Shown here: positions 18,561 through 50,800 of the stretch, in pieces
How the letters are laid out: each line of letters opens with the position of its first letter
Position numbering within the stretch: the stretch's first letter is position 1
Virus record (IMG/VR): IMGVR_UViG_3300030333_003568
Coordinates: 1 to 54,445 of that record
Source of the DNA: a virus
Lineage: Duplodnaviria; Caudoviricetes
Length of the DNA: 54,445 nucleotides
Direction: 5' to 3' (one strand)
Program-made: the position numbers and the translations under genes
The notes under the pieces: model-generated
The model's input: the letters and a program-made list of their open reading frames with translations, nothing else
The model's database searches: none
Told to the model about the DNA's origin: nothing

Positions 18561-20132
18561 TTACGACCAATAAGCGTGGGCTTCTGGCATTGACCATTCC
18601 ATCCCAGCTTCTGTTTGAATTAAGTCAACCCTTCGGTCAACACCACTGTTTTCTAAGGTTTGGACTCCAACATAAATAGCCGTATCTCTATTTAAGCCAT
18701 TTCCAACAAGAGGTCTGTATGCACAATGCCTCATGTTAACAGCTAGCATTTTGACTGGGCTACCATCAAGGTGAACATTACGAGCTACATTCATATCACC
18801 ATAAGGTGTAGAGATAACTGTAATATCAACTCCCAATACCTTCTTTTTGCCAGTAATTGACATATCAGCTCTATAGTTAGGCGATATTTCAAGATTATTA
18901 GCAAAATAACCACTTAGCTTATGTAACCAATTAAAAGTAGCAGTATCTACAAAAAATAGAGATGCATTAGCATTGTTATAACGAGGGTCTAAGAAGTTAC
19001 TCATATCTTGCAAAAAGTCATCTTGAGTTTTGCTTGAGTGAGTTAAGCTAAAAATATTACCATATTGTGTAATATAATCAACAGCACCTTGAGTATACCA
19101 TTCATCACCAGAGTCATATTGAGAACCAAACAAACAACTTTGTTCAATATCCCATTTATGCTCAATCAACTTTTCACGCCAAACTCTAGCCCACTCACTT
19201 GCATCATACTTGAGGACGGTAGCACGAGTTGTGTTATCCATCGCCATAGCAGTCTTCCAAATTTGTGTACGACCATAAGCTGTCGAGAAAGGTTGATCTT
19301 TCCAAGTCTCTGGGTAACCAGAACCTTGACCATGAGCTGTTCCAACAACATAAGACCTATAGTCTTCAAGACCAGCGTTATTTGTTTCTCCTTCACCAGA
19401 GATACTTACATTGTATGTACGATCTCCAGCTGGAGCTGCTGAGTTTACACCCGCAATAACATCATGACCAGCTGATTTTGTTTTTACAACAGTTCCTTTC
19501 AAGATCGCGGCTTCTCCTTGACCATGAGCAGTTGGTGGGTTTGTAGATTCGTCTTGAAGGGTTACGCTATCTACTCTTATTATAGCATAAGAAGCTGTTT
19601 TTTGTTTAGCAGATAAAGAAGCAGATGCATTACCAAAATTTATTCTGACCATTTGGTCTTTCATATAAAATTGTGGTTGAGTTCCTGCTCCTCCGATTCT
19701 TACTTCGTTACCTGTATTTCCATAAACATTTGATATATTACCAGAATGTTTATAATCGCTCATCATCTTAACATAAACAGTAGTACCTGCTGTTTCATAA
19801 CTATCCAATTGAGTATCAATATCTGTTCCATCAAGGGTCTCAACCCACGTTGAATTGTCGTTACTAAAAGCTACAGGATATGCATACCTTTTATGAAAAG
19901 ATGGTCTGCGTTCTGTGAATTTAAATTCTGGGTCATCAGTTGGTTTCTTTGAAAGTTTAGAAACCATTCTGAAAAAAGGATCCTGAGCTATTGCTAACTC
20001 AGATACTCTATCCCCAAAATTGTATTTTCTCCGAAGCGCGCCTGTATCGAGGTCTTGACCATAGAGCGGTTGCCCAGTTGATCCACCAGAAGATACATCA
20101 GCGGTTGCTTCTAGATTAAATAAGTCAGCCAT
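18561..20132 (-). CDS. Major capsid protein
   Basis: 523 aa after portal and scaffold; TQIWKT, EHKWDIEQSCLFG, TPYGDM, TEAGME motifs of HK97-fold MCPs. Confidence 0.8.
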   Translation of the reverse strand: MADLFNLEATADVSSGGSTGQPLYGQDLDTGALRRKYNFGDRVSELAIAQDPFFRMVSKLSKKPTDDPEFKFTERRPSFHKRYAYPVAFSNDNSTWVETLDGTDIDTQLDSYETAGTTVYVKMMSDYKHSGNISNVYGNTGNEVRIGGAGTQPQFYMKDQMVRINFGNASASLSAKQKTASYAIIRVDSVTLQDESTNPPTAHGQGEAAILKGTVVKTKSAGHDVIAGVNSAAPAGDRTYNVSISGEGETNNAGLEDYRSYVVGTAHGQGSGYPETWKDQPFSTAYGRTQIWKTAMAMDNTTRATVLKYDASEWARVWREKLIEHKWDIEQSCLFGSQYDSGDEWYTQGAVDYITQYGNIFSLTHSSKTQDDFLQDMSNFLDPRYNNANASLFFVDTATFNWLHKLSGYFANNLEISPNYRADMSITGKKKVLGVDITVISTPYGDMNVARNVHLDGSPVKMLAVNMRHCAYRPLVGNGLNRDTAIYVGVQTLENSGVDRRVDLIQTEAGMEWSMPEAHAYWS

Positions 20133-20192
20133 TTGACTTACTCCTTATTTTAGAGTTAAAGCATCTGGCTATGACTGAAAAAAGTTCAGCTA

Positions 20193-21035
20193 TTAACCAA
20201 ATGCAGATTCAAGATTCTTGTCAATCCCCAAAATGGCATCAAATAACTCATCTTCTGGATCAGAAATTACAGAAGCAGAACCGTTACTAGCTAATGACTT
20301 AGGTTTCATCTGAGTATTTTTAATATGCTCAGAAGCTTTTTCAGTTACACCAGCTGATCGTGGTTCTTGAATAGGTTCGTTACTTTCTCTTTGTTTAAGA
20401 TAATAAATATCATCAAGAGATAACTTCCTAGAATCTGCATAGTTTTTAAACTCTTTCCATTCGTCTTCGTTAAGACCATGTTTTTCTTTAAAAGAATTTA
20501 TTTCTGAATTAATTTGAGCTTCTTGTCGCTGCTTTCCTAATTCATTCTTCATTCTTTGTTGAACAACCCTATCTATGGTAGAGTTCAGAACTTTTGCTGA
20601 ATCACTTTCAAGATTTGTTACAGCTTCATCCGCGTCAAAGATAAAATCTTCTGGAAGATCAAGCTTTTCTGTTACACTTTGTGGGGTTTGACCGCCACCC
20701 TCGAAATAACTTCTCACATGATTAATTAATTCGGGGTCTTTTCGCATTTCGTCAAGTATAGGTAAATATGGTTCTAGTTCCTTCAGACGGGTGTTAAGCC
20801 GTTTTCCTTCTTTACTAGAATCAGCATACCTTTTTTTAAGAGTCTCGACATCCTCTTGCTGAACTTCACTAACAACATTTTCTTTGTTATCAGAAACAGT
20901 TTGTGAAGAATCATCACTTTCAAGAATACCTCCATTAACTTCTGCATCTAATGATGAGAAGAAATCAGAAGGACTTGTAGAGCCTTGTACTTCATTGGGG
21001 GCTTCGGTTGAAGCGTTGCCTTGAGTTTGAGCCAT
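20193..21035 (-). CDS. Capsid scaffolding protein
   Basis: Acidic, coiled-coil (LKKRYADSSKEGKRL); between portal and MCP. Confidence 0.7.
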   Translation of the reverse strand: MAQTQGNASTEAPNEVQGSTSPSDFFSSLDAEVNGGILESDDSSQTVSDNKENVVSEVQQEDVETLKKRYADSSKEGKRLNTRLKELEPYLPILDEMRKDPELINHVRSYFEGGGQTPQSVTEKLDLPEDFIFDADEAVTNLESDSAKVLNSTIDRVVQQRMKNELGKQRQEAQINSEINSFKEKHGLNEDEWKEFKNYADSRKLSLDDIYYLKQRESNEPIQEPRSAGVTEKASEHIKNTQMKPKSLASNGSASVISDPEDELFDAILGIDKNLESAFG

Positions 21036-21068: not shown

Positions 21069-23288
21069 TTAATTAGTTTTGTCTTGTTCCAATTCTTTTT
21101 CTGTTTTCTTTTTTAGATCATCTTGCATCAATTTTCTATAATATTTTTGTTGAGCTTCTGTTTCTAATACATCTTTTTTAATTTCATTTGAACCAACACC
21201 TATTTGATGTCTTATTCCAGCTTGTACCAATTGACGTTTTAATGTTTCGTTTTCACCCATTTTATCTTTCATTTGAGATTCTAGAGATTGGATTTGTTGT
21301 TGCAATTGAGCATAAAGAGATTTTCTTTCTAGAATTTGTTCTTTACCTCTAACATCTGTTTCAGAAAGCATAGCAACATCATCAATAAGACCAGCTTGAA
21401 ACCATCTAAAATATTCTTCAAGTAAAGCCCACCTATTTAATGGCATAACTGCTCCAGCTACAATTCTTATATCAAATCTAGACGAAGCATAATCATTCCA
21501 AAGTTGAACTTGATCCCCATAATCATTATAAATTGGAATATTAATTCTTGTTTCTTTTTCATCATAATCGCCAGCTGTGTTTGGTTGAACTATTCTAAAT
21601 ACCTTATCTATTTTATAATGAGCTTGAGAATGTTGTTTAAAAATTTCCCCAGTATGTTCAAGAGCAGGTTCTAATACGCTATTCATCCAAGCTTTTATTC
21701 TTCTAGTTCCAAACTCATCATTAGCAAGTAAACCTCTGTATGTTTCAGCTTGTTCTTGAGTAAAGCCCATCATAGCACTTGGAATACCAGCTATATACTC
21801 CATATCTGATTTACCTTCTTGCGTAACGGTAAAAAAAGCATTATTAATTGGAGCTGGCAATACTGGAGTTGGAGGTGTAAAACCAGGTCTGTATTTTAAT
21901 AAAGCACCTGGAGCTGATGAGTATTGTTCCCATTCATCTTCTGGAACACTTCCCTCTTCATATATCCATCTAAGATTGGAAGCAAGGTTTGCATTGTGAA
22001 GCATAACTTGATGAGCCTTATTAACTTCTTGTTGTTTTCCTATCATTGGTATAACTGCTGACATTGGATATGGAGTACCAGTATATAAATAAGGTACTGG
22101 TATTATAGGATAGTCAGTTATTGGTAATATGTATTCATACATAGTAACATCAGAACCAAGAGAACAAGATACCTTAACTCTTTTTTCATAGAATTTTACG
22201 CTATCAATTATAGTTTTTGCAACTTGCTCATTTTCAATTAAAAGTTTATATTCTTTTTCAGTAACAACTTTTGATTCTGTTCTATTTAATTCTTCTTGAG
22301 CTGCGTAATCAATTTCAGATTTCTTTCTTTCTATTCCGTACTTTAAAGCTTCTTCAGCTTTTTTTATTTCGAGCAATGCTCTTTCTTCTATTATTTCACC
22401 AGCTTGAAGTTGGCGATCTATTGACAATATAGCTTCTTTTGTTGCCACTTGAGATTCTTCTATAAATGATTTTAATTTTTGCTCTGAAACTATTTTTACA
22501 TTTTTCATATCCTCATCAGATGGATACATTTGTATTGTAAGATTGTAAAAAGGAACTCTTATTTTTTCAAAACATTCATAATAATCAATTATTTGATCTT
22601 TTGCACCTTCAGAATCAACGCTTGTTCCAATATCTTCATGTATAATAGCGTCTGAAGAATTTCTATCAACCATTGAATAAGATTGCATCCTTCCTTGTTC
22701 TGATGCTTTATTTATTTTACGAATATGTTCTGGGAACATTTGTTTAAGTTGATTTTTAGGAACTGCTTTTTTAACAATAATAAAAGAAGCATCTCTTAAA
22801 AGAAAATCTCTACTCATAGGATCAGGGTAAACATCATAAGGGTCTATTCTTTTAAATACCACATCCCCCTTACCATTATCAAGATCAGTATCTACATCTA
22901 TAAAAAAATAACCAACACCTTTAGCAAGAGCGTCTAAGATAACACTGCCGTAAACAGCTTTGCCATTTGAAATATTCCAACAATAGTCAGATATATCACT
23001 ATGTATTTGAGCTATGTTAGTATCACTTCCATCAACAGCTACTGCTTTCCATCTAGGATTATTAGCAGTTACAAAATATTTCATTGTTTCAATAATAGGA
23101 GTTATCCTATTTATTTGAAAAGTAGGCATACCAGCTTCTTCTAAAGCATCTTTTTCATCTTCTGTTAATTGGTCATTAAGATAAAAATCATATCCTTTTT
23201 GACTTTGAGACTGCCATTTAATTCTTTCATCAGAATTAGCAGAATTAAACATATTATATATTCTTTCACTTGTTTTTGTTTTAGCCAT
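21069..23288 (-). CDS. Portal protein (P22-like)
   Basis: 739 aa after TerL; FYLNDQ, INRITP, DPYDVYPDP motifs; C-terminal coiled coil. Confidence 0.85.
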   Translation of the reverse strand: MAKTKTSERIYNMFNSANSDERIKWQSQSQKGYDFYLNDQLTEDEKDALEEAGMPTFQINRITPIIETMKYFVTANNPRWKAVAVDGSDTNIAQIHSDISDYCWNISNGKAVYGSVILDALAKGVGYFFIDVDTDLDNGKGDVVFKRIDPYDVYPDPMSRDFLLRDASFIIVKKAVPKNQLKQMFPEHIRKINKASEQGRMQSYSMVDRNSSDAIIHEDIGTSVDSEGAKDQIIDYYECFEKIRVPFYNLTIQMYPSDEDMKNVKIVSEQKLKSFIEESQVATKEAILSIDRQLQAGEIIEERALLEIKKAEEALKYGIERKKSEIDYAAQEELNRTESKVVTEKEYKLLIENEQVAKTIIDSVKFYEKRVKVSCSLGSDVTMYEYILPITDYPIIPVPYLYTGTPYPMSAVIPMIGKQQEVNKAHQVMLHNANLASNLRWIYEEGSVPEDEWEQYSSAPGALLKYRPGFTPPTPVLPAPINNAFFTVTQEGKSDMEYIAGIPSAMMGFTQEQAETYRGLLANDEFGTRRIKAWMNSVLEPALEHTGEIFKQHSQAHYKIDKVFRIVQPNTAGDYDEKETRINIPIYNDYGDQVQLWNDYASSRFDIRIVAGAVMPLNRWALLEEYFRWFQAGLIDDVAMLSETDVRGKEQILERKSLYAQLQQQIQSLESQMKDKMGENETLKRQLVQAGIRHQIGVGSNEIKKDVLETEAQQKYYRKLMQDDLKKKTEKELEQDKTN

Positions 23289-23315: not shown

Positions 23316-24911
23316 TTAAGCAACTATCCAAGCCTTTGCTTTTCTCTTTGGTTTGATCCATTTTCTTTCTTTTCCTTGATTTGATTGTTTTAAATTTGGG
23401 GGGAAAGCGTGCAAAAGCGCATAGAAAAGTGTTTCAATAGTATCATCATGTGCCATTTTTGACCCAAAAGTAACGATTTCGTGTTTTAAATCAAACATAT
23501 TATCCCTTAAATATACTGTTCCCGTACTAAACCTACCAGATAAACCAGAATATATCTTATTTCTTTTTTCTCTTCCACCTGGTTTTTCAGGGATTACCGC
23601 TATTTCAAACTTATTTTCTATTCTTCTTCTTTCATTTAAAGCTTGAAATACCGATCTATTCATAGCGACATCTTCAACTGTACTAGATGTACAATGGTAT
23701 TTTTGATGCATTTCCATTATGTAATCAACTACACCTTTTTTTCCTGTAAGAGTTCCATCAACTCCTCTTGCTCCGACAGTTGGTATTGAGCGATGTCTTT
23801 CGTATTCAAGAACATAAGCATTATTATTGGGGTCAATTGCCACAGCCATAATAACAGAAAAGTCTGAATTTCTTGTATCTATATCTGTGGCTGGGTCGCA
23901 TCCAATAAATGTATTACATGGTATTTGTTCACCATCTATTATTAAATAATTTATATCATCTTCATTTTTATAATAGCCTTCCCAATATTTTACATAATTA
24001 TTTCCCCAAAGAGCATCTTCTTCATTTTGAACTTCTAGTTCATATTCTTGGTAATAACCTTGTCCTCTTCCAGCTTCTTCATATTCTTTTTTAATTTTTA
24101 AAAGTTTTTCTTTTGGCATATAAGAAGCCCACAATACACCACCTTTCATTTCTGGTTGAGTTGATTTGTATGTAATTACATCCCATGTATATTTAGATTT
24201 ATTATCTGCTTTTTCATATCCATCTAATATATTTTGACACAAGCTATCATAATGAACTGGTGTTCCTGCAAATATTAATCTACCGCTATTAACATCTAAA
24301 GCAGGTCTAACTCCATTATATACAATATTCTTTATCTTTTCTCTAGCATCTTGAGTTACTGTATTTGTTTCACTTTCAGTATCATCAAGGGCAACAATAT
24401 CATATCTTTTTCCTAAATAGTTTTCACCACGAACACTTGAAAGATTTGAACGACTTATTAATTTAGCTTTTGTATTTGTTACAATATCAGTTTCAGTCCA
24501 CTTTTCTCCAACAATATCTCCAAAATAATATTTAATCATATCATTTGTTTGGAAATGTTGTTTAATGTATTGAAGATTTAAAATTGATTTTCTATGATTA
24601 TCAGAAACCCAACCCATAAATAAAAACTCATCTTGAGGTTTAAATAATATTTTATGCATTAAAAATGTTTTAAATAACTGAGTTTTAGCACTTCCTCTAG
24701 GAAGTATTAATGCAAGTGATCTTGTAGTCTTTTCAAGTAGAGCATCTGCTATTTCATAATGGAACTGGGGAGATTCGGACTTTCCAAAATCCCCTGGCAA
24801 GAATAATTTACCAAAAGCAATCAAATCATGCCGCGCTATGTCAAGAACTTCATTTGCTCTTGAAACATTATTATTATTAATATTTACTTTTTGTACTTGC
24901 TTCTTTTCCAT
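23316..24911 (-). CDS. terL: Terminase large subunit
   Basis: PRGSAKT Walker A variant, VALDDTE Walker B, GTP coupling motif, YQEY, nuclease IGCDPA...SDFS...HDD. Confidence 0.9.
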   Translation of the reverse strand: MEKKQVQKVNINNNNVSRANEVLDIARHDLIAFGKLFLPGDFGKSESPQFHYEIADALLEKTTRSLALILPRGSAKTQLFKTFLMHKILFKPQDEFLFMGWVSDNHRKSILNLQYIKQHFQTNDMIKYYFGDIVGEKWTETDIVTNTKAKLISRSNLSSVRGENYLGKRYDIVALDDTESETNTVTQDAREKIKNIVYNGVRPALDVNSGRLIFAGTPVHYDSLCQNILDGYEKADNKSKYTWDVITYKSTQPEMKGGVLWASYMPKEKLLKIKKEYEEAGRGQGYYQEYELEVQNEEDALWGNNYVKYWEGYYKNEDDINYLIIDGEQIPCNTFIGCDPATDIDTRNSDFSVIMAVAIDPNNNAYVLEYERHRSIPTVGARGVDGTLTGKKGVVDYIMEMHQKYHCTSSTVEDVAMNRSVFQALNERRRIENKFEIAVIPEKPGGREKRNKIYSGLSGRFSTGTVYLRDNMFDLKHEIVTFGSKMAHDDTIETLFYALLHAFPPNLKQSNQGKERKWIKPKRKAKAWIVA

Positions 24912-27354: not shown

Positions 27355-27366
27355 GCTTCCTTTTTT
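27345..27366 (+). terminator. Intrinsic terminator
   Basis: GGAAGC-GTAA-GCTTCC-TTTTTT. Confidence 0.8.
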
Positions 27367-27393
27367 GAGTTAATCATATAGGCTTTCACATAC

Positions 27394-27424
27394 CCAGGTT
27401 GCTAGACCCTGAGAAAACTAGCAA
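27394..27424 (+). ncRNA. Compact H-type pseudoknot, preQ1-I-like layout
   Basis: CAGG/CCTG crossed with TTGCTAG/CTAGCAA, A-rich linker AGAAAA. Confidence 0.3.
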
Positions 27425-27529
27425 AGATTTTATTATATGAGGGCAAGTGTTTTACCATTTTCACTTAGCCTTCAAAGTATTTATTATACACACTTTTCAA
27501 ATAACATGGGTAATAACTAGGGAGGTTAT

Positions 27530-27652
27530 ATGAGCATTAATTTTGCACCCAAAGAAAAGCTATGGTTTGTACTACTAGATGGTACAAATACTGTATTGTT
27601 TTATTCAATACACAAGGCTCAATGTCTTGCGTATATGGAAAAGCGATTATAG
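27530..27652 (+). CDS. 40-aa early protein
   Basis: GGGAGG SD; MSINFAPKEKLWFVLLDGTNTVLFYSIHKAQCLAYMEKRL. Confidence 0.6.
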   Translation: MSINFAPKEKLWFVLLDGTNTVLFYSIHKAQCLAYMEKRL

Positions 27653-27721
27653 TTTTTCTCGTTGGTTAGAGGCTACCAGAAAACAAAGCCTCAAAGAATT
27701 TATTATATAAAGGAACTAATA

Positions 27722-28281: not shown

Positions 28282-28284
28282 TAA

Positions 28285-28920
28285 TGGCAGGGCTAGAGGG
28301 AAGCCTTTAATTCCCTCAAAGATTTAAAATGATGTGGCTAATAGTAATATCCGTACAAATATTAATATTGGCTTAAATGCAAATCCTATGAACAACTCAT
28401 TCTACTAGGGCGTGAGCATAGGGCAGTGAATCAGTTCTTTAAGGGCTGAAGTATTCGACCTAAATATTGGCAATACTATCGTAAAGATTGAGCTGTAAGT
28501 ATGAGACTACAACTAAGGAAAGTTCTAGTGTTGTTGTGCAATAGTGAAGGATTGTTAACCTTCTAGTTCTATAAATAGATGAGACTAATAGCGTAAAGAA
28601 TAGGCAACTGTTCAATGTTATAATGTTAATGTGATTAATACTCATGAGACATAAGTCGTAGTATAGTAATATCAGATTCTAGCACAATGTTGCTCGAAAG
28701 AGCAAAACAAAATAACCGAGTATTGTTAGGTAATGGGTTAAAACTCCCTGTCTAAATCTAACTTGCAGCATCATTAATTTTGGGGCTAAATACGCGCCAA
28801 ATGTAAGTGCGGAAACCGATTGTGAGCTTACATAGATTGCAAGGATCGCAACCTGTAATATTAGTTTGATCAACTATATTAGGATGGTGTTATGAGCACC
28901 ATCTGCAATCAAACTTTTAT
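28285..28920 (+). ncRNA. Candidate large structured ncRNA (~640 nt; ROOL/GOLLD size class, family unassigned)
   Basis: No SD-led ORF on the transcribed strand; many hairpins incl. TTGCTC-GAAA-GAGCAA and GAATAG-GCAA-CTGTTC; long-range GCTGTAAGT/ACTTGCAGC. Confidence 0.6.
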
Positions 28921-28941
28921 AAAATAATAAAGGAGTTAATA

Positions 28942-29683: not shown

Positions 29684-29736
29684 GGTGGTGATGATTGTTT
29701 ATAGACATGGTTTCATGATTCACCACCATTTTTTTA
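29684..29736 (+). terminator. Hairpin plus T-run
   Basis: GGTGGTGA...TCACCACC-ATTTTTTT, large loop. Confidence 0.5.
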
Positions 29737-29827
29737 TTTAGAGAAGTTTAGCATCCATTAGTACTTGTGGGATTGCACATAAAGGTCAGCCCTTTATCTT
29801 CTCTATAAAATTTAAAGGGGAAATATT

Positions 29828-33649: not shown

Positions 33650-34240
33650 ATGATCGAATTATCTGATACAACTTACAATGAAGAAAGGGATGGAATTATC
33701 CCTATAGTAGCAGGAACATATCCCGCTCATGTAGCAGGTCTTGAAAGTAAAGACTTAACTACCAAAGCTGGAGAACAGAAAGTTTTTAATATAACTTTCC
33801 TAGTTGCTGAAGAAGCTAGTAAAACAAAAGTTACCAAAATGGTTAAAAATGGCGATGGTCAAATGCATGAAGCAAAAGATGAAAATGGTAATCCAATAAC
33901 AATACAAGCTACCCACATGACTGGAAAAAGATTCAATTCTACTGGTATATGGTTAACACCAAGCCCAGAAGCTGGTCAAGGGTGGAAAAATCGCAAATAC
34001 AAAGAGTTCTTTGAAAATCTAGGAGTTATATTCCCAGAAAATAAAGACGGAGATACTGTGTTAGCTGAGGTTGAAGAAAGTGATGTAATAGGTAATCCAT
34101 GTTTTATTAAATTAGGACAAGAAACTTATACAAAAGATGGCGAAGAAAGAAGCGTTTGGAAAGTATTTGATGCTTTTACTTGGTCTGATGGACAAAAATT
34201 GTCTGAAGATGAAGTAGTAGTAGACGATCTTCCATTTTAA
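33650..34240 (+). CDS. Single-stranded DNA-binding protein (DUF669-like)
   Basis: IVAGTYPAHV N-terminal motif; acidic DDLPF tail; follows annealase. Confidence 0.75.
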   Translation: MIELSDTTYNEERDGIIPIVAGTYPAHVAGLESKDLTTKAGEQKVFNITFLVAEEASKTKVTKMVKNGDGQMHEAKDENGNPITIQATHMTGKRFNSTGIWLTPSPEAGQGWKNRKYKEFFENLGVIFPENKDGDTVLAEVEESDVIGNPCFIKLGQETYTKDGEERSVWKVFDAFTWSDGQKLSEDEVVVDDLPF

Positions 34241-34253
34241 AATACCGCATCCT

Positions 34254-34798
34254 AATAAAAGAGAGAGTTTGTTTGAATTTCATTTTCCTTTTGATTAAAA
34301 AAAATCAATCTTATAGATTGTTCTCTCTCTTTTTATTTAGTGGCATTGGATAATTGTTAACAAAAGTATGAATATTAGGATTATTTTTGTAACAAGTGAA
34401 ATTATATATTCTTTTTTGGTTGGCTCTAAGAAAGACCAGTGCCACCTAAAATTTAAATATAGGGATGGAAGTACCCGTAAGGACTTCATAGGTAAAGACT
34501 GTTTGGTATCCAGCCTCCTACCTAATGTTACATCCCTTATTAATAGGGGGGTTCTCGTTAAGTGGTTTATTCTACTTTCACCACTCTGAATTAACAGGCG
34601 TAAAACCGTGAGCAATCCCCCAATAATTATACAATGTCGGTCAGTTAAGTCTAGACGATTCAACTCCGTAAGCGAGCCGACTGTATGGGGCATAAAAATA
34701 AAAATAATAAGGAAAAAAAGTACTTAGCAAAGTAAATAAAAATGTTAGAATAATTTTTCTGCTTTGCTTTGGCTGTGGCAGTTATGCCTTTGCCCCAT
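34254..34798 (+). ncRNA. Tandem array of six stem-closed candidate small structured RNAs
   Basis: Six abutting, non-homologous units each closed by a 7-11 bp inverted repeat, most with internal hairpins. Confidence 0.55.
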
Positions 34799-34947
34799 TA
34801 AATTTTTCAATTAATCTTGGGAGTAGATATGAAAAAAAGAATTAAAATAGTATACAAAATAACTGTAACACTTTGGATATGGACAACAATAATATGGTTT
34901 TGGATGAATGGGTTTATATTCTTTGTAGCAAAATAAAAGGAGAAGTA

Positions 34948-35154
34948 GTGAATAGAGAAATAATACAATTAATGAAACAAAGATTACAAATAGGTAAAAA
35001 AGAATATGGGCAAGAAGTAGATGTATTTGATGGTAGAAGTTGGGAACAAGAAGCTTTAGAAGAGGCTTTAGACTGTTCTATTTATCTAAGCGCTGCTTTA
35101 TTAAAATTAATAAAATCAAAAAAGAAAGGAATACAAAATGACCCAGAATGTTAA
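34948..35154 (+). CDS. MazG-like/all-alpha NTP-PPase-like small protein
   Basis: GTG at 34948 after AAGGAG; GKKEYG...EALEEALDCSIY acidic pattern. Confidence 0.45.
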   Translation: MNREIIQLMKQRLQIGKKEYGQEVDVFDGRSWEQEALEEALDCSIYLSAALLKLIKSKKKGIQNDPEC

Positions 35155-35299
35155 TAAAAATGGATATAAAAAATATCAAGTTCCAAATGAAGCTATGTTT
35201 GGAAAACACGCTGGTGTAAATTTCTACGCCAAAAATAATGAAGATAAGAATCTTTATTTAATTAAATTATTAGATCAACCAGAGGATAAAAATGCTTAG
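35138..35299 (+). CDS. 53-aa hypothetical protein
   Basis: AAGGA SD; MTQNVNKNGYKKY... Confidence 0.5.
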   Translation: MTQNVNKNGYKKYQVPNEAMFGKHAGVNFYAKNNEDKNLYLIKLLDQPEDKNA

Positions 35300-36179: not shown

Positions 36180-36395
36180 TTGCTTCGGAAGGAAATTATG
36201 ATATATCTTGACCCAACGATAATAAGAACAAAAACATCTAAAACTCTTTTAAACTTATTAAGTAAATGTGAAAAATATTTAAAACAACATGATAGCATAG
36301 AATCTATCTCAATACAATCTGACATTAATAGAGCAAAAGAAATTTATAAAGAAGAAATAGGGAGAATTTATTATAAAAAAAGAGGAGAAATATAA
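36180..36395 (+). CDS. Hypothetical protein (start probably ATG 36198)
   Basis: AAGGA SD before MIYLDP. Confidence 0.5.
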   Translation: MLRKEIMIYLDPTIIRTKTSKTLLNLLSKCEKYLKQHDSIESISIQSDINRAKEIYKEEIGRIYYKKRGEI

Positions 36396-37781: not shown

Positions 37782-37790
37782 TTAAACCAC

Positions 37791-37865
37791 GGGGGCAATT
37801 ATTGTATAGGTGTTAATATGCCTACCTATACACCCATTACTACTGCTAGGTGAATAGTTGCCCCC
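37791..37865 (+). ncRNA. Three-way-junction candidate RNA upstream of methylase
   Basis: 13-bp closing stem GGGGGCAATTATT/AATAGTTGCCCCC; inner GTATAGGT/ACCTATAC. Confidence 0.45.
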
Positions 37866-37883
37866 TAATTTAGGAGATAATAT

Positions 37884-44000: not shown

Positions 44001-44839
44001 ACAATTTTTTTATCTATGTTTTCTTTGCTTTCTTGCAAGTCTTCATAGCTATAAAACCTAAGAGATTTTCCTTCATCTTCAGCTAAATAACCATAATAAC
44101 CTGGGACATCTAAAGTTACTTCTTCTGTTAAAACAACTCTTTGACCATTAGAATCAACAACTTCAATACCATTCATAACAGAGTTGTTAAAATAAACACC
44201 GCTACCTTTTCCTTTTATTAAATTGTGCATAACATCAAATGCTTTTTTTCTTGTTTCTGTTATTGGATTTAAATATATACCAGCCATAGATATATTTCTA
44301 TCGCCTATAGTTTGAGCTTTGCTTACAAGGCTTCCTAAAAACCCAAATCTATCTACCCAAGAAGCAATAAATTCTGGAGGAGATAAAAATAATTCAGTTT
44401 TAGATATTCCTTTTTCGCTTTTTGCCAACTTTTCTCTTTTATTTATAATCCTATCTGTAAGAGCATTAACAGATGTCATAGTTCTAGTGCCTTGTTGTAT
44501 AGTTACTGGCGTTATCTTGCCTCTTAAATGTTTGGCGTATATTCTTTGCCAGTCATTTGCGTGTTGAACGGGGTCTATTAAATTAGGATCATAACCAGCT
44601 TCTTCAGCTGATTTCATAGAATAATCTACAAGTTTATCATACAATTTTTTGTGAGTTAAATATCTTTTTTCTTCTATTTTTATTAATTTTTTATTTTTAT
44701 ATCTTTGAGCACTAGCAAGATAAGCCTTAGAAGGTCTTCCTATTATACCAGCTATAGCTTCGGAACATTTATATTTCCAAGCTAAAACTTCATTAGAATG
44801 AAGGTCTTTTGCTTGTTGGATAGTTCTACAAGCAGACAT
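41087..44839 (-). CDS. Large putative virion ejection protein (~1250 aa)
   Basis: ATG 44839 coupled (TAATG) to RNAP stop; helical, hydrophobic C-terminal segments; YTQFG...LWQYKQYP motif as in podovirus ejection proteins. Confidence 0.55.
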   Translation of the reverse strand: MSACRTIQQAKDLHSNEVLAWKYKCSEAIAGIIGRPSKAYLASAQRYKNKKLIKIEEKRYLTHKKLYDKLVDYSMKSAEEAGYDPNLIDPVQHANDWQRIYAKHLRGKITPVTIQQGTRTMTSVNALTDRIINKREKLAKSEKGISKTELFLSPPEFIASWVDRFGFLGSLVSKAQTIGDRNISMAGIYLNPITETRKKAFDVMHNLIKGKGSGVYFNNSVMNGIEVVDSNGQRVVLTEEVTLDVPGYYGYLAEDEGKSLRFYSYEDLQESKENIDKKIVSKYTDELMDEIGNGQVRYINPQLINREVDEEGYLSENAMPGNDLKVLKTKIKQLVNAKKTGNRVPGIHTKRVIMKGKTWEYRYVMIKQGEGGSSETYNAYLIDKAQILGDKRKPGTSINFLGKTLSEVDGEVTEVYTEYDNQELGTVIERGWHRSDEINDFGKQTVKVKKKGKEKEELEFKELKGTHKKQYINFKKYEQGKEPNELLMKQVWKSLAIVRASYKAAYADIKSKADKQLARRNAIRKNVIQWRMSKFKESKEKADEWLSTFFEANGIQSTLWENEQGELQTPTAFSRPKAENYFPNKYSKMNVFMRMLPAQIRKTNNKLKDEIQSVLGGRGGIEYLSKAKELLKKNGEYEGSDLQRYELGLEHLENIITRFHKNEEADQSLYDLPSLKNLKHITSWTDPLLRRKDGRIHHEYFNETYNALNKQDIINELAESVFKISKLGNMPKGTLEFAVNRVKIGFGDPTSRAISITGKETSYADFADKLNGLPSFIRGGRTWSPKEAERLTKWITAPASMLFLGGSSAVQNSGQIINTMIQVGWDNVREAQQAMDSDNNKWKRIAQNTGALNVLTMFTDIMMKDGDVRSSDMGFIPTPGIQIPTANPIRLARLLRAGRDSFVKSGDESIDALLMKMIKIKEGSSREEFQNLKDINELRKSVFNKDLREKRGQFYDIFTLEEGTSEKVIQQLFKDMLGDVSDGLIKRMVSWKLSWWWKGVGGRDIFTFTGSEEKLRTTTIVASLLHAQKIGLIDADSSKSDEQIFMTPAAVEIARNAVYYTQFGMTPPHLGEGFNGFGRALWQYKQYPTLQMIHDYQIYKKFSDGSEGTIDGMTRLLDAVSIQMKSIAKGKKYDPSDRNIDHEAVAMLRFLTTRGMASVIASFVTAIPLIGYLLKGQAINMYGLMRGAENPALAIAFRTMIWGALFAMGADEDEERKRNEITTGLSYLFFPVVLGSFFNASKDIYEWYND

Positions 44840-47800
44840 TAGCACTTAGCCATTTTTTCTGATGATGATATTTCTTTTTCTGCCAATTTAGAATTTAATA
44901 TATCTTGAGTATCTCTAAGGTCTTTGTAATAACCTTTTTTCATTTGGGCATCTCTTTGCTTTTCTGGAGTTAAAGACGCTTCAAATGGTTCTAAACTGTT
45001 GTTAACTCGATGAGACATATCACTAACAGATGCTCTAAAATATTTTTCCCATGATGATAAATAAATACCTAATAATTTATCATTTAAAAACGCTTTAGGC
45101 AAAAATTTCTTTACATATATTTTATTTTGATCAGTTAATCCAGATAGATATTTTAAAGTTACCCACATTTTAGCATCTTCATCTAAAGCTTCAAACTTAT
45201 CAATAAACCTATCTGTAAACTCAGAAAAGGAAATGTTTTTATCAGTTTGAATAGCTTCTCTATCATTTGTTTTTTTAAGTAATAAATTCCATATATCTAT
45301 AAAACTCATATCTTTAGAAACTGCTTTTGTTCCTTTTATTCCTAAAAACTCTTGAAGGTTTGTAGTTTCTTTGGAAAAAACTTTAAACTTTTTAAATAGA
45401 AAATCTTCAGCAGCTTCAAATGAAGAAAGTTTATTATTATCATCTCTCATATCTTTTAAATAATTTTGCATAACTGATGATTCTCCCATTTCTTTAGCGG
45501 CTGCTATATGAGCATTATTAGCAACATCATTAGATTCTATAGCATTAATCACATCATAATTTAAATTATTTCCAAGACTAATTAATAAACTTTCAACTGG
45601 AGTTATATTATTTTTTAAAGAAAAACTATATTTTTTAACATTGTTTAAAAGCTTTGAAAGTTTTTTACTTTTTCTTGTTCTTTTATTTAAAGAATTTTGT
45701 ACTTTTGATTTAAAATTATTTGAATAATCTTCATCACTAAGTAAACCTTTTAAAGCCCCTCGGTTATCTATTTTAGATATATCAATTGTTTCATCCCCAT
45801 TCATCATTTCATTTAAATCTCTACTTATATCAACATTTAAAAAGAAATCAGCAGATATACCAGTTTCTGTTCTTCCATGTCTAACTTTACTTACATTTTG
45901 AACACCTTTAACCATAGATAAATAAAAGAACTCAGCGTCAGTAAAATCGCTATTCACTTCGTTTGTACCAACAATTTGCTTTTCAAATATTTTAGATGAC
46001 ATAAAATGATCAAATCTCATAGGTTTACCATCCTCATCTAATGGCATACTTTTAAGAATATCTGTTAAATGTGTAAACTTAGAACCGTCAACAGCCATTT
46101 GAAATAATATTGCTAATTCATGTGATTTAATTGTTTTTAAATACAATACTTTATCAGACTTAGCAGCGTTATCTAAATCTATTTCATTTCCATTTTTATC
46201 TACTAAAGAATCTCCGTTGTTTTTTAATATATTAATTTGTTTTTTATCTAATTGAGATTTATCAATTTCAATATAATCCATTATAACTTCTTTATTTGGA
46301 TCAACTGCTTTTATTACTATATTTTTTATGTCTTCGTCAGCTGCTAAAGTAGTATCCTTAGATTGATTTGATTCCATTTCCATAGAAAAATCTTTACTAT
46401 AAAGCTCAGCCATTATAGTTCTACTATTTAATGAAGTTCCAGTTGTTCCAGTATTTCTTGCGTTTCTTTCTATTTCTTTAAGAGAGTGCAAAGGAGACAA
46501 GGCAGATGATTTAATTTTACTATTTGGATCATCAACCCTTGCTCCAAAAATAGGCAAAGGAACTACTCTGTCTACTTTTTCTTCTTTAGAATAATCTTGC
46601 CATTCTTTCATGCTATCAGCATAATCATCATCAATAAATTCAAATACACCTTTATCGCCATCCCAATCGCCATCAAAGTATTCAGTAACATCTTCTTCTC
46701 TCATTAACATAGATTCGCCAAGACCTTCTTGTAATGCTTGTACTCTTCTAACAATTGGACCCGTTACTTTAGAAATTGGATTTCTGTGCATTAAAACATT
46801 AACCTCATTGTTTTCTAAAAATGGATTTAAATACTCCTTAATCATTCTATGCCTATTTAAGCCTTTACCTTCTTTCTTTTCAGCTTGCATAACTTTAGCA
46901 AAAGCTTTTTCGCCAATTGATTCTTTCCATTTTTGAAAAACTTGATTGTATGCAACTTTATTATCAGCTGAAAGAATAACATTTCCTTTAATTATTTTTT
47001 GATAATGAGATTTTAAATAAAGAATTGAAGACTTGCCGTCCCAATCCCTTCCTTTGTATAATCCTTGTTTTATTAAAATAGAATTAACAACTGGAAAAAT
47101 TTGCGATCTTATAGCTGGGTGAAAAAGACCAAACCCATCTTTCTTTATTAACTTTATATAGCTTTCTGACTCACTAGGTATTTCACCATCTTTTAAAGCC
47201 CTATCAATAAATTTTTTAAATTCATCGGGGTTTTCAATTAAAGTATTTATTTTATCTGTATAATAAGATGAAATATCTTTATATCTGTTTCTAATAGCTT
47301 TTAAAACATTGCTAGTAAATTTATTTTCATAACCATACATAAGAAGCATCTCTCCTAAAGCTATAGGATGAGAAGCGGATTCTTTACTTTTTTCTTGAAC
47401 ATTATTTACTATAATAGAGCTAGAAGGAATTTTATGAACACGACCATATCCATCTTTGTAATCTTCTGGCTTTTTACCAAATGCTTCTGCTTGTTGTTCG
47501 GCACTTGCAAACTTACCAAGTGTCATTTTAGCTTCATTCGGAGAAGCTATCATTTCAAATTCTTTTTTAGTATTTGGGTCATACCAATATGTAAGACCAT
47601 TTTTATCTGCTTTAACTTCGGCTACAACTTTACCAGAAGAAGGGTCTCTTATAACCATATTTTTAAAAGCAGAAAACATCATATGCTTCATGCCTAAATA
47701 ATCATTACTTTTATCAGTTATTTCTCTATGCCTAATAAATGTTTTTATTTGTTGAAACAATCTGTATCCTATATCATCAGCCATTTCAGATAAGTATTTA

Positions 47801-50800
47801 CTGCCAACAAAAGAACCACCATCAAATTTATCATAAGGAATTTCTTCGCTTTGTTCCATTTGAATTTTTCCATTTTTATCTTTAACAAGCTTTCCATTTT
47901 TGTCTACCTTTGGTACTAAGCCACTAACAGTATAATGTTTTGGAATAATCATTAATCCTAAATCCCTAAGATTAACTGGTCTTTGACCTTCAGCCATATC
48001 TATACTAAGTCTTATCATACTGTCTGATGCACTTTTTTCATACATAAAATAGTCTGGTGTTCTTACAGCTTGCCAAAATCTTAAATTTTGCAAAGAGGCT
48101 GCCATAAAAGATTTCGCATAAATAGGTTCTAAATTTTTGGCTATTTCATTTATAAGATCAGATGGCTTTCCATCTGGGTTATCAGAAACCCATTTATCTA
48201 CATATTCAGATAAAGTAAAATTAACAAAATCTGAATCACTTTTACTTAAATCATCATAAAAAGACTCTTTCATCATTAAGTCATAATGCTCTTGTCTTAT
48301 ATTATTAGCAGCTAATTCATTATCTATAATTTGTTTAAACATAGCTGGTGTTAAATTATGTGGATTATTATCACTTGCAATACTTGATAAAATAGAAGCA
48401 TTGTCTCCAAATTTTGTTCCAGTAATAACAAGCAATTGAGCATTTGATTCTTTTATATCTTTTAAAAGTTGATCTTTAATTTCATTAATATCAACATCTT
48501 CATTTAAAAGTTTTTTTGCATTATTAAGGCTTAATGTTAATTGATTTCTAAGTTTAGATATATATCTTATATTACTAGCCTCTTGCATTTTTAATAATTG
48601 TTCCAAATTTAAATCAATAGCTTCTTGCTTAAAAAATTCTCCACCTTGCCATACGATATGTTTCATTATTTGTTTTACAGGAAGAATACCTATTCTTATA
48701 TTATGCTTTTTATTTTGAAAATCTCTTTCAATAGAATTTCTAATAACTCTTGAAGGAAACAACTTGCCATTATTTATTCTATCTTTTTCATCAGCAATTT
48801 GCAAAGCGTTTTCAGAACCAACTGCATTTGTTTCAATTCTATAGTAAAGCCTTGAATTTCTTCCTTGCTTAGATTTGTCAGTTGGGCTAAACCTATCTAT
48901 TGCTTGTCTTCCTTTTACCCATTCTCTTTTTAAATCTCTTAATTCATTTTCTGTTAAAGTTTCTCTTTTCTTAAAAAATTCATCACTTGGGTGTTGTCTA
49001 TTTGCAATAATGTTTTCTAAAAGAGGATAAAGCTCATCTAAATATTTTTCAAAAGTTTTATGTTTTTTAAGAATTAATTTTTGCATTTTAGGATAATCAT
49101 TTATCTTGCTTATATAAATTCCAAAAACTTTTTTATAAAAACTGTTATAAGCATCAACACTTGATACTGTATTTGTTTTATTTAATGATTCTCCCCCAGT
49201 TCCTTCATGAGCTTCATCGCCTGGTAATCCGTCAAAGTTTTCTGGCACTTGTTCAGATGGGTCTTCAGCCATATAATCATCAAAAGTAGTTAATATATCT
49301 GGTTGAACACCAAGCCATCTTCCTTGATAAAACTCTTCAGCAATAAACTCCATAACTTCTTGCTTTCCTTTTGGCTCAATGCCAAACATTCTTTTTAATC
49401 TAGCAACAAATTGTTTTAACCATTTTTCAAATTTTAATTTTAAAGACCTCGGTTCATTCTGCATCCTATCAACATAATACTTGCCAATAGCAAGAACTAA
49501 ATTTTCTTCAGTTTTAAATAAGTTTATACCTCTTTTAACAATATCTTGACTAGCAAACATTTTAATATAAATATGAGCATATTCATGAGGTATTGTATCA
49601 AGTCTTCCATCTGTTGTTGACCACTCAACTAAAGATTCAGTTGCGTGTCCTATTTTTTGAGAGCCATAAACATCAATTAAACCTTCAAATGTTTTTTGTT
49701 CTATAAATGGAAAATGCTTTTTTAATCTTTTGGCAAGTCTTGATGCAAACTCTGGAGTATCTTTTATATATGGCAAATCAGATGAATCAATATCTTGAGT
49801 TCCAATTATTGGATCATTATCACCTTCAATTTTATCTATGTCTTCATCGCTTAATAATTTATTCATAGATTTTCGCTTCGCTTCTAACAATTCATTGTAT
49901 TCGTCTTTTTCTTCTTTTTCTAAATCTTTTTTATCTTGATTTTCATTAGAAACTTCTGAGTCTAATTCATTAGTTCTTTTATTTGAAACTTTACTCTCGG
50001 GCTTTGCAATATCTTCTGTTATATAAAGATTTATTGGATCATCTTTAAGTTTCTTAACAAGGGCTTTTTGCCTTGCTATTTCTCCTTTAACAAAATCGGG
50101 ATTAGAAAATATACCTTCCTTTAAATTCCTTTCATCTTCTGCAATTTCATTTTCAAGATATTTAATAGGATCTTTTTTAAATATTTCATACTCTGCTTTA
50201 CTTGTCTTAATAATATTTTTAGAAGTTTCATCAGTCCAATCTGGGTCATCTTTATGTCTTTCTGAAATTTCTTCAACTGTGTCTTTAGTGCGTTTATATA
50301 ATTCATCATCTATTTCTTTTAAAGTTAATGGCTTTTTTTCTGCTACTTTTTTATCACCAAAATCAAATGTCTCATCTATTGTTCGTGTAGGAGGGAGTTC
50401 TTTTATAGCCTTAATTAATTCGCCTTTATTCATTCCAGAATAACCCTTAATACCTCTTTCTTTTGCAATAGCTACTAATTGATCTTTTTTCATTTCAGGG
50501 AGTTTTTTATCAAAGGCTTTTTTCTTAGCTATAGATTCTTCAGAAGGGGTAGGTTCAGTAGCAACTTTTTCTTTTGGTTTTTTACCTTCAGCTTTTATAA
50601 TCTCAGCAGCTTCAGCTGATTTTCTATTATACCATTGAAGCCATTCAAATTCTTTTTCATCCATTGGAACTTGTTTTGAACCAGGGATCAAGCTTTCTGT
50701 TAATTCATCTCTTCTTTTTTGAGATAATTTATTACCAAACTCCGAAAGTTCTTTGTCTTTAGCAGTTTCAATTTTTATTGCTTTATCAATTCTTTCTGAA

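What the first reader, a model, noticed from the sequence alone, without database searches (positions are those of the whole stretch)
34254..34798. Tandem array of six different stem-closed small RNA modules: possible undescribed phage sRNA cassette
Seen: six abutting units, each closed by its own IR. (1) AAAAGAGAGAG/CTCTCTCTTTT 34257-34333. (2) GTGGCATTGG/CCAGTGCCAC 34340-34445. (3) AGGGATG/CATCCCT 34461-34537. (4) GGGGGGTT/AATCCCCC 34546-34621. (5) ATACA-GTCGGT/GCCGAC-TGTAT 34629-34686. (6) ATGGGGCA/TGCCCCAT 34685-34798. Linkers are short and AT-rich. Units 3-5 fold as multi-helix junctions and each contains CGTAA in a short hairpin. They are not sequence repeats, tRNAs or CRISPR. Inference: a polycistronic precursor processed into distinct sRNAs (antisense regulators, protein decoys or anti-defence mimics). 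Together with the scattered modules and the large RNA, it would form an RNA-based early programme.
Basis: partly seen in the sequence, partly recalled or inferred. Interest (0 to 1): 0.82.

Follow-up and report, generated by a model that had tools for sequence, protein, structure and literature searches.

The report
Array of shuffled phage RNA modules
A 590-base gene-free stretch of an uncultured marine phage holds a row of small, separately folding RNA-like modules; several recur in other marine phages in other orders and places, so they look like swappable accessory RNA elements of unknown function, not tRNAs, repeats or genes.

Summary
They fill a 588-nt non-coding gap (34241-34828) between two same-strand genes of a complete 54-kb marine phage record. 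A bare count of 7-bp closing repeats is not above chance. The fold of the whole gap is (z -4.4, 0 of 100 shuffles). There are no tRNAs, Rfam families, direct repeats or conserved ORFs.

Comparative data carry the case:
- Unit 1 is a conserved terminator-like hairpin.
- Unit 4 sits as a discrete block in other metagenome contigs with foreign flanks, and after a unit-6 copy.
- Unit 5 has a 44-nt core that is 93-95% identical in phages whose proteins are 31-63% identical. Its closing stem differs but stays paired.
- Unit 6 belongs to a family with covarying stems, always just upstream of unrelated genes.
- Units 2 and 3 are orphans.

Related phages carry similar arrays that differ by module-sized indels.

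Best reading: an array of independently inherited structured RNA modules transcribed with the early/replication genes. No expression data exist, so whether discrete trans-acting sRNAs are made is open. The families are undescribed.

The parts
33650..34240 (+). Upstream gene, 196 aa, ending ...DDLPF. Function unassigned; the tail recalls SSB C-termini, which is a recalled resemblance and not a tested one.
   Evidence: ORF list. No PHROG, Pfam, NCBIfam or PDB sequence hit. 14 + 58 related loci were fetched with it.
34254..34340 (+). Unit 1: an 11-bp GA/CU stem closing a 55-nt loop with inner hairpins, followed by a U run. Terminator-like element of the upstream gene.
   Evidence: I5. Conserved at 76-78% in the closest relatives. 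The closing stem is invariant in 4 of 4 sequences, and one compensatory pair lies in an inner hairpin. Relatives carry a long-stem hairpin plus T run at the same place.
34340..34445 (+). Unit 2: three-way junction closed by 10 bp (one G-U). Orphan.
   Evidence: z -5.54 on +, against -2.33 on -. No relative in 91 loci or by pattern in IMG/VR. A ~94% relative's contig runs over units 1-2 and diverges at 34460 (record 18).
34461..34537 (.). Unit 3: 7-bp closing stem and two hairpins, one capped C(GUAA)G on +. Strand uncertain. Orphan.
   Evidence: z -1.43 on +, -4.05 on -. Read from the sequence, two A-C mismatches on + become G-U on -. No relatives.
34546..34623 (+). Unit 4: compact multi-helix module closed by GGGGGGUU/AAUCCCCC. 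A discrete block shared with other metagenome contigs.
   Evidence: z -3.13. Contigs of runs X2-X5 match 34546-34623 with about 2 differences and then run on unlike the window at both ends. In X2, X3 and X4 it follows a unit-6 copy (joint 34801>34546 with 4 letters between). No hit in IMG/VR or GTDB genomes by three patterns.
34629..34686 (+). Unit 5: three-way junction. Conserved core 34636-34681 with a palindromic 8-mer and a C(GUAA)G hairpin. The closing stem is variable.
   Evidence: Family found in 4 IMG/VR loci of 2 lineages. The core is 92.7-95.5% identical. 45 of 45 cells are paired and 4 pairs are compensatory. A further copy with an unrelated but complementary closing stem is in runs X3/X4.
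34685..34801 (+). Unit 6: closing stem P1, A-rich 5' segment, variable hairpin P2 and invariant hairpin P3 (GGCA-GUUA-UGCC), 28 nt before the next start codon.
   Evidence: Family in L113, L114/L005, L115, L117, L118 and L006. P1 and P2 covary. P1+P3 are paired in 50 of 50 cells with 3 compensatory pairs. z -3.18. Block boundaries 34686/34801 in run X3.
34829..34936 (+). Downstream 35-aa hydrophobic ORF, with GGGAG 5-9 nt upstream of its ATG.
   Evidence: Read. No PHROG hit.
34337..34693 (-). 118-aa ORF across units 2-5, judged spurious, as is the 73-aa + ORF at 34368-34589.
   Evidence: No Pfam hit. In 5.8 billion proteins the only match is itself. It spans modules that occur apart in relatives.

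Best explanation
The gap is a mosaic of independently inherited, stem-closed structured RNA modules. They lie on the + strand inside the phage's early/replication gene block and are most likely transcribed with it.

Unit 1 is the terminator-like hairpin of the upstream gene. Unit 6 is a conserved element that always sits just ahead of a gene. Units 4 and 5, and perhaps 2 and 3, are free-standing accessory modules. Each closing stem only has to pair, so it drifts by compensatory change, while the core inside it is held constant. That is how structured RNAs evolve.

Modules are gained, lost and re-ordered between related phages much as accessory genes or phage tRNA genes are.

Shown: discreteness, family membership, covariation, co-orientation with the neighbouring genes, and absence of any known family.

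Inferred: transcription; cutting at the AU-rich linkers into stable small RNAs, or action in cis on the polycistronic mRNA; and any target. My split within this reading is about 0.3 for released trans-acting small RNAs or ribozymes and about 0.25 for cis-acting processing, stability or leader elements.
For: 1. The gap folds better than shuffles (z -4.41, 0 of 100).
2. Breakpoints in natural relatives fall at unit edges: 34460, 34546, 34623, 34686 and 34801, plus 34643/34677 inside unit 5's closing stem. Unit 4 is found after unit 6 in 3 runs.
3. Unit 5's 41-44-nt core is 92.7-95.5% identical in phages whose shared proteins are 31-63% identical. Its stems are paired in 45 of 45 cells, with 4 compensatory pairs; 8 of 500 shuffles do as well, and slid controls give at most 44% paired.
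4. Unit 6 family: 3 compensatory pairs in P1/P2. P1+P3 are paired in 50 of 50 cells, with 3 compensatory pairs; 2 of 500 shuffles reach the observed covariation score, and likewise the observed % paired.
5. Every copy seen is co-oriented with the gene that follows: unit 5 in 3 of 3 lineages, unit 6 in 7 of 7 loci.
6. Wobble pairs sit on the sense strand. I counted 11 G-U cells and no A-C cells in the three alignments.
7. Across 16 such arrays, the sense strand has the lower z-score in 13.
8. C(GUAA)G caps read as GNRA tetraloops only on + (established RNA knowledge).
9. There are no tRNAs, Rfam families, repeats or conserved ORFs.
10. Two phages 88-96% identical over the aligned array region differ by at least 6 module-sized indels.
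Against: There is no expression evidence at all.

In the focal gap the two strands score alike (z -4.41 against -4.68; -4.60 against -4.19).

Unit 3, and unit 1's interior, fold better on the - strand.

Units 2 and 3 have no relatives, so nothing beyond thermodynamics supports them. Unit 3 is not significant on +.

The count of closing repeats is at chance level.

The alignments hold only 3-5 distinct sequences, so the covariation is suggestive and not statistically strong.

Unit 5's covarying element is a DNA-type palindrome (8-mer) whose inner pair would close a 2-nt loop. A dimeric DNA-binding protein site would explain it as well.

Fast gain and loss also fits selfish DNA.

Sense-strand folding is equally expected for single-stranded DNA of that strand.
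Confidence: 0.55

Rival explanations
1. The elements work as DNA. Single-stranded hairpins in the replication module would serve as priming or initiation signals, or as hairpin promoters of the kind N4-type phages use. Alternatively the palindrome and closing repeats are protein-binding sites.
For: The gap lies among replication-type genes: a Cas4-like exonuclease upstream and a DnaB-like helicase downstream. The terminase is weakly N4-like (about 23-25% identity), and N4 uses DNA-hairpin promoters (recalled). Unit 5 keeps an exact 8-bp palindrome through two changes. Both strands of the focal gap fold equally well. Unit 6 has an A-rich tract between G+C clamps.
Against: There are no iterons or direct repeats. 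Neither the terminator-like nor the promoter-like site scan singles out the array. Each family is single-copy per genome, unlike promoters. The giant 2694-aa protein gives no RNA-polymerase hit. Closing stems drift freely, which a sequence-specific protein site would not allow. Sense-strand bias holds in 13 of 16 arrays. The same modules sit next to unrelated genes outside replication modules.
Confidence: 0.15
2. Selfish or neutral mobile DNA. The units would be miniature hairpin elements that accumulate in a tolerant intergenic hot spot and do nothing for the phage.
For: Module-sized presence/absence differences between near-identical phages. The same module occurs in unrelated contexts and orders. 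The window's gap (588 nt) is the largest of 64 measured relatives' gaps (4-306 nt).
Against: The terminal repeats are not conserved among copies of one family, while the interior is. That is the reverse of transposase-recognised ends. There is one copy per genome. No target-site duplication is seen at the indel junctions I read. Orientation is always the same relative to genes. Cores are far better conserved than the surrounding proteins.
Confidence: 0.12
3. Ordinary intergenic signals plus chance. Unit 1 would be a terminator, unit 6 a promoter/leader, and units 2-5 AT-rich spacer with fortuitous repeats.
For: The closing-repeat count is at chance. Units 1, 3 and 5 are not individually significant on +. 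Unit 6 holds a TTAGCA-16-TAGAAT match with an upstream TG. Units 2 and 3 are orphans.
Against: Units 4 and 5 are conserved as blocks in other phages. Promoter-like sites are not enriched: 5 found against 6.6 expected. By eye, the promoter-like match is not conserved in the other unit-6 copies. Whole-gap z is -4.4.
Confidence: 0.12
4. The gap encodes small proteins: the 118-aa ORF on -, the 73-aa ORF on +, or micro-peptides.
For: Two ORFs of 73 and 118 aa are open across the units.
Against: No Pfam hit. No homologue of the 118-aa product other than itself among 5.8 billion proteins. The 73-aa product was only scanned against Pfam. Both ORFs span modules that occur separately elsewhere. Read, the 73-aa ORF has no ribosome-binding site. 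The conserved unit-5 core carries stops in its frames, by my own reading of the sequence.
Confidence: 0.03

Closest known systems
Phage tRNA / small stable RNA gene clusters, such as the T4 tRNA region with RNAC and RNAD
   Same: Tandem, abutting, tRNA-sized genes closed by a terminal helix, with short linkers, gained and lost as units. T4's RNAC and RNAD are still of unknown function (PMC9697503, passages read). tRNA-Met genes lie near comparable arrays in two related contigs.
   Different: There is no tRNA in this phage, no cloverleaf and no encoded CCA. RNase P processing is only a possibility. The cluster sits in the early/replication block. I made no sequence comparison with RNAC or RNAD.
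Clusters of self-cleaving ribozymes (hammerhead, twister, pistol, hatchet) in phage polycistronic transcripts
   Same: Small junction RNAs with a conserved core and free stems, placed regardless of the neighbouring gene in phage intergenic regions, often several close together. Sources: PMC4604425, which says ribozymes associate with phage genes and with other ribozymes (passages), and PMC3088659, which describes multiple hammerheads in one polycistronic RNA (passages).
   Different: No ribozyme model matches even at E<=10, and none matches at gathering score in five related records. By eye there is no hammerhead core. Cleavage is untested.
T4-type 'mobile regulatory cassettes' (promoter plus stem-loop elements in hyperplastic regions) and T7 early RNase III hairpins. 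Both are recalled, not read here.
   Same: Intergenic stem-loop elements between small early genes that mark module boundaries and go along with cassette shuffling or mRNA processing. Some indels here are a module plus a tiny membrane ORF.
   Different: Those elements are repeats of one sequence within a genome, or simple long hairpins. Here each module is different, single-copy, multi-helix, and shared between genomes rather than within one.

Membership tests
tRNA / tRNA-like genes | Cloverleaf with anticodon arm and T-loop, detectable by ARAGORN or the Rfam tRNA model | tested here: not met
   ARAGORN found 0 genes in the whole window. No Rfam hit in 33800-35200 at E<=10.
Known self-cleaving ribozyme classes (hammerhead, twister, twister-sister, pistol, hatchet, HDV-like) | Match to the class covariance model / conserved catalytic core | tested here: not met
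   No Rfam match at gathering score or at E<=10 or E<=1. None in related arrays.
Known self-cleaving ribozyme classes | Site-specific self-cleavage of the transcript | not testable with these tools
   Needs in-vitro transcription and a cleavage assay.
Intrinsic terminator (unit 1 only) | Stable stem with a short loop, followed directly by a U run, at the end of a transcription unit | tested here: inconclusive
   The 11-bp stem and U run are present and conserved. The loop is 55 nt, so the scan did not call it. Relatives have long-stem hairpins plus T runs at the same place.
Miniature inverted-repeat mobile elements | Terminal inverted repeats conserved among copies; many copies per genome | tested here: not met
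   The closing stems of unit-5 copies differ while the core is constant. Each unit is single-copy in the window and in relatives.
Iteron-type replication origin / CRISPR-like array | Direct repeats at regular spacing | tested here: not met
   0 direct-repeat families. The only tandem repeat is a 16-nt ATAAAA run.
Protein-coding gene | ORF conserved in relatives or matching a protein family | tested here: not met
   The ORFs span modules that occur apart in relatives.
   No RNA run listed as holding the phage. Only DNA contigs could be laid.
Structured RNA family (generic) | Conserved structure with compensatory base changes in independent lineages | tested here: met
   Met for unit 5 and unit 6, though with only 3-5 distinct sequences. 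Weak for unit 1, with 1 compensatory pair. Not testable for units 2, 3 and 4, because no fetched relatives were available to align.

The most novel reading that the evidence does not exclude
Marine phages carry an accessory 'RNA cassette pool': dozens of undescribed small structured RNA families that shuffle between genomes like accessory genes. At least one of them, the unit 4/5 type, would be a new catalytic RNA (self-cleaving) or a new host-factor-binding RNA that dimerises through its palindromic loop. The unit 4/5 type is a three-way junction with an invariant ~35-nt core holding GUUAAGU, a palindromic loop that stays self-complementary through paired changes, and a CGUAA...GAGC element.
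Probability: 0.18. Interest if true: 0.85.

Novelty: new variant of a known kind. Interest (0 to 1): 0.62.

Why it matters
Phage non-coding RNA is far less charted than phage proteins. These modules match none of 4227 Rfam families, yet two of them are better conserved than the surrounding proteins, and they move between phages as units. If they are functional RNAs, they add an RNA layer to the phage accessory genome. Candidate roles are host takeover, anti-defence and mRNA processing. They would also give several compact new motifs (46-105 nt) that can be tested directly in vitro for cleavage, dimerisation or protein binding. If instead they are DNA hairpin signals or selfish elements, they still mark recombination-prone module boundaries in an abundant, uncultured group of marine phages.

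Tried and rejected
- tRNA-like reading of the 76-77-nt units 3 and 4. Hand threading onto a cloverleaf failed, and ARAGORN and Rfam found nothing.
- Hammerhead, twister and pistol cores by eye: absent.
- Integron attC reading of GTTAAGT...ATTCAAC in unit 5. The boxes come in the wrong order for the recalled consensus; dropped.
- Sarcin-ricin-loop mimicry of unit 5's CGUAAGCGAG. The flanking strand does not fit (recalled consensus); dropped.
- Homology of units 4 and 5. They share GUUAAGU, AAC, CGUAA and GAGC in the same order, but model R1 does not find unit 4; unproven.
- Isolated phages: no match of the gap in 50,697 phage records. The 196-aa protein has no match there either.
- Pattern scans with no hit: unit 4, unit 3, unit 2.
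- The unit-6 motif in GTDB genomes gave 71 hits, against my hand estimate of about 35 by chance. 0 of 71 had the closing stem, so there is no host clue.
- R1 found no unit-5 copy in five unit-6-bearing records.
- Expression: no RNA holder was listed, so nothing can be said about transcription.
- Depth figures were not used to rank abundance.
- Virion RNA polymerase in the 2694-aa protein: only a Rho_N domain hit.
- Promoter scan: not enriched.
- Supplementary files of papers were not consulted.

Full report
**Setting**

The window is a whole virus record of 54,445 bases, rated 99% complete. It comes from marine metagenomes; all 20 DNA runs that hold parts of it are marine or seawater. Genes run on the - strand from 1-26.9 kb and from 41.1 kb onward. 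A + strand block at 27.1-41.0 kb holds small genes, a Cas4-like exonuclease, a DUF932 protein, a DNA methyltransferase and a DnaB-like helicase.

The finding fills the 588-nt gap 34241-34828. Upstream is a 196-aa gene of unassigned function that ends ...DDLPF (no family hit). Downstream is a 35-aa hydrophobic ORF with its own GGGAG ribosome-binding site.

**The observation**

The six closing inverted repeats are real, and the minimum-free-energy fold of the gap reproduces all six stem-closed units.
- CGTAA in units 3, 4 and 5.
- Short AT-rich linkers.
- No tRNA, no Rfam family at gathering score or at E<=10, and no direct or tandem repeats.

The bare count of closing repeats is not unusual, however. 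My script found 5 non-overlapping units closed by >=7 bp in the gap, against a mean of 4.57 in dinucleotide shuffles. 160 of 300 shuffles did as well, and 31 coding control windows gave 2-6.

What exceeds chance is the folding energy of the whole gap: z -4.41 on +, -4.68 on -, with 0 of 100 shuffles as good on either strand. Three units also stand out singly on the + strand: unit 2 (-5.5), unit 4 (-3.1) and unit 6 (-3.2). Units 1, 3 and 5 do not (-1.7, -1.4, -0.9). Unit 3 folds clearly better on the - strand (-4.05).

**Not coding**

A 118-aa ORF (-) and a 73-aa ORF (+) cross the units. Neither has a Pfam hit. The 118-aa product matches only itself among 5.8 billion proteins. Both span modules that occur separately in relatives.

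**Relatives of the locus**

The upstream protein retrieved 14 IMG/VR and 58 metagenome loci; some are the same contig held in both collections. In 64 of the 67 loci with a full-length match, a next ORF of >=40 aa could be called. The gap after the gene is 4-306 nt, mostly about 100 nt. It typically holds one long-stem hairpin followed by a T run.

Only the closest relatives (78-80% protein identity) share sequence with the window's gap, and only unit 1. Its closing stem is invariant in 4 of 4 sequences, and one inner-hairpin pair changed on both sides. At the position after unit 1, these close relatives carry three different states: one module, a different module, or none. Units 2-6 have no nhmmer match at E<=10 in any of the 91 loci held at that point.

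**Natural variants in sequencing runs**

No RNA run holds the phage, so expression could not be examined. Laying contigs of four DNA runs at >=80% likeness gave the key result: relatives break at unit boundaries.
- One contig covers units 1-2 and diverges at 34460.
- Unit 4 (34546-34623) lies on contigs of X2, X3 and X5 that run on unlike the window on one or both sides.
- In X2, X3 and X4, a unit-6 copy ending at 34801 is joined by four letters to the start of unit 4, so the order is permuted.
- Unit 6 aligns as a block, 34686-34801.
- In X3 and X4, the interior of unit 5 (34643-34677) is flanked by a different closing stem whose two arms are again complementary.
- One X5 contig keeps the order unit 4 (3' part), unit 5, unit 6, ORF, with 53 differences and 9 gaps over 520 letters.

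**Unit 5 family**

A pattern from the core found four IMG/VR loci from two lineages, L093/L095 and L094/L096. The 41-44-nt core is 92.7-95.5% identical to the window. The proteins these phages share with the window are 31-63% identical.

The closing stem differs in each lineage yet always pairs. On the three distinct sequences, 45 of 45 cells form standard pairs and 4 pairs changed on both sides. 8 of 500 shuffles did as well, and structures slid by 1-3 columns gave at most 44% pairing and no compensatory change.

One of the four compensatory pairs lies in an 8-nt palindrome, GUCUAGAC in the window and GUGUACAC in the others. If the flanking GUU...AAC helix forms, this palindrome sits in the loop. 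That is what a self-complementary kissing loop would look like, but a dimeric DNA site fits too.

All copies point the same way as the gene that follows them. Those genes are unrelated: by my reading of the translations, ParB-like and ThiF-like, plus others. In each of these phages the unit 5 copy again sits in a row of other stem-closed modules.

**Unit 6 family**

A degenerate pattern from its 3' hairpin found seven IMG/VR loci. Five have the whole architecture: L113, L114 (the same contig as L005), L115, L117 and L118. Two GC-rich contigs, L112 and L116, have only the hairpin and its tail in a short gap. Model R2 added L006:675-789 (E 0.0013). For reasons I did not resolve, the window's own copy was not listed in that run.

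The family shares:
- a G-rich closing stem followed at once by UAAAAAU and an A-rich tract;
- a hairpin P2 that is different in every member but always pairs;
- an almost invariant hairpin P3 (GGCA-GUUA-UGCC, UGCA...UGCA in L006) two bases before the closing strand.

RNAalifold on four members gave 15 pairs, 3 of them with compensatory changes. On five members, P1+P3 pair in 50 of 50 cells with 3 compensatory pairs; 2 of 500 shuffles reach the observed score.

In L114, L115, L117, L118 and the window, the element ends about 20-50 nt before the start codon of an unrelated gene; in L113 and L006 another module follows it first. In L117 and L118 it follows a terminator-like hairpin. So unit 6 behaves like a portable pre-gene element. 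The sigma-70-like match inside the window's copy is not conserved in the other members, by my reading.

**Units 2, 3 and 4**

Three patterns for unit 4, one for unit 3 and one for unit 2 found nothing in IMG/VR. A unit-4 pattern found nothing in one genome per prokaryotic species. Records very near the window are withheld from these scans, so this is weak evidence of rarity.

Units 4 and 5 share GUUAAGU, AAC, CGUAA and GAGC in the same order next to the closing stem. A module in a third phage has a similar CGUAA...GUGAGC element. Model R1 does not detect unit 4, so common descent is unproven.

**The phenomenon is wider than this gap**

Two complete phages that are 88-96% identical over the aligned array region differ by at least six indels of about 70-245 nt in their non-coding arrays. 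Most of these indels are single stem-closed modules; some are a module plus a tiny membrane ORF.

Another module of the window (29733-29826) recurs at 91.6% identity in L113, directly after that phage's unit-6 copy and ahead of a different gene.

None of the related records searched holds an Rfam family. Two related contigs have a tRNA-Met near such arrays.

**Which strand, and RNA or DNA?**

For RNA on the + strand:
- Constant co-orientation with genes.
- 11 G-U cells and no A-C cell in the three alignments.
- C(GUAA)G caps, which are stable GNRA tetraloops only on this strand.
- A lower z-score for the sense strand in 13 of 16 arrays.
- G-U pairs make up 161 of 1418 pairs on the sense strand, against 102 of 1304 on the antisense.

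Against, or neutral:
- The focal gap itself shows no strand difference.
- Unit 3 prefers the - strand.
- Single-stranded DNA of the sense strand would behave the same way.
- The alignments are shallow.

**Conclusion**

This is an array of discrete, structured, horizontally shuffled modules of undescribed families, most likely acting as RNA.

It is heterogeneous: a terminator-like unit, a pre-gene element, two conserved free-standing modules and two orphans. Processing into trans-acting sRNAs is untested.

The nearest known systems are phage tRNA/stable-RNA clusters (T4 RNAC and RNAD; PMC9697503, passages) and clusters of self-cleaving ribozymes in phage operons (PMC4604425 and PMC3088659, passages). 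Membership of either fails on the features that could be tested here.

My literature look-up for similar arrays was limited to three searches. It is not proof that none is in print.

Noticed in passing
window 28282-28941: A 660-nt non-coding stretch in the early block, rich in GNRA-type caps. The + strand gives z -4.14 (0 of 20 shuffles) and the - strand z -1.93. There is no Rfam hit and no similar sequence in any fetched locus.
   Followed up: partly
window 29733-29826; L113:335-428: A stem-closed module just upstream of a gene recurs at 91.6% identity in another phage. There it directly follows that phage's unit-6 copy and precedes a gene homologous to a different window gene (36180-36395). 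One closing-stem pair is compensatory, by eye.
   Followed up: partly
window 37782-37883: Another ~76-nt module closed by GGGGGCAA/UUGCCCCC lies between the DUF932 gene and the methyltransferase gene. z is -2.9 on the sense strand and -2.3 on the antisense.
   Followed up: no
window 27355-27661: A 307-nt non-coding stretch with strong strand asymmetry of folding (sense z -4.65, antisense -0.40). It is partly conserved in the closest relative (G001).
   Followed up: no
G006 21150-22860 vs G008 (L105-L111): Two complete phages 88-96% identical over this aligned stretch differ by at least six module-sized indels. Some cassettes are a structured module plus a 28-35-aa hydrophobic ORF, like unit 6 plus the 35-aa ORF in the window.
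   Followed up: partly
L115:3485-3554; L024:14712-14783: tRNA-Met genes lie within or near non-coding arrays in two related contigs. The window itself has no tRNA.
   Followed up: no
L112:8732-8750; L116:5883-5901: Two GC-rich viral contigs carry only the unit-6 P3 hairpin plus its 3' tail, in a short gap between genes. It may be a minimal form or a chance match.
   Followed up: no
window 23316-24911 and 44839-52926: The terminase is about 23-25% identical to those of N4-like phages. The 2694-aa protein has only a Rho_N domain hit, and no RNA-polymerase similarity by sequence.
   Followed up: partly
G003 (L027-L029) 19340-20433, 53283-57398: A 58-kb relative has several very long stretches (up to 1644 nt) without an ORF of 55 aa or more. 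They were not examined.
   Followed up: no
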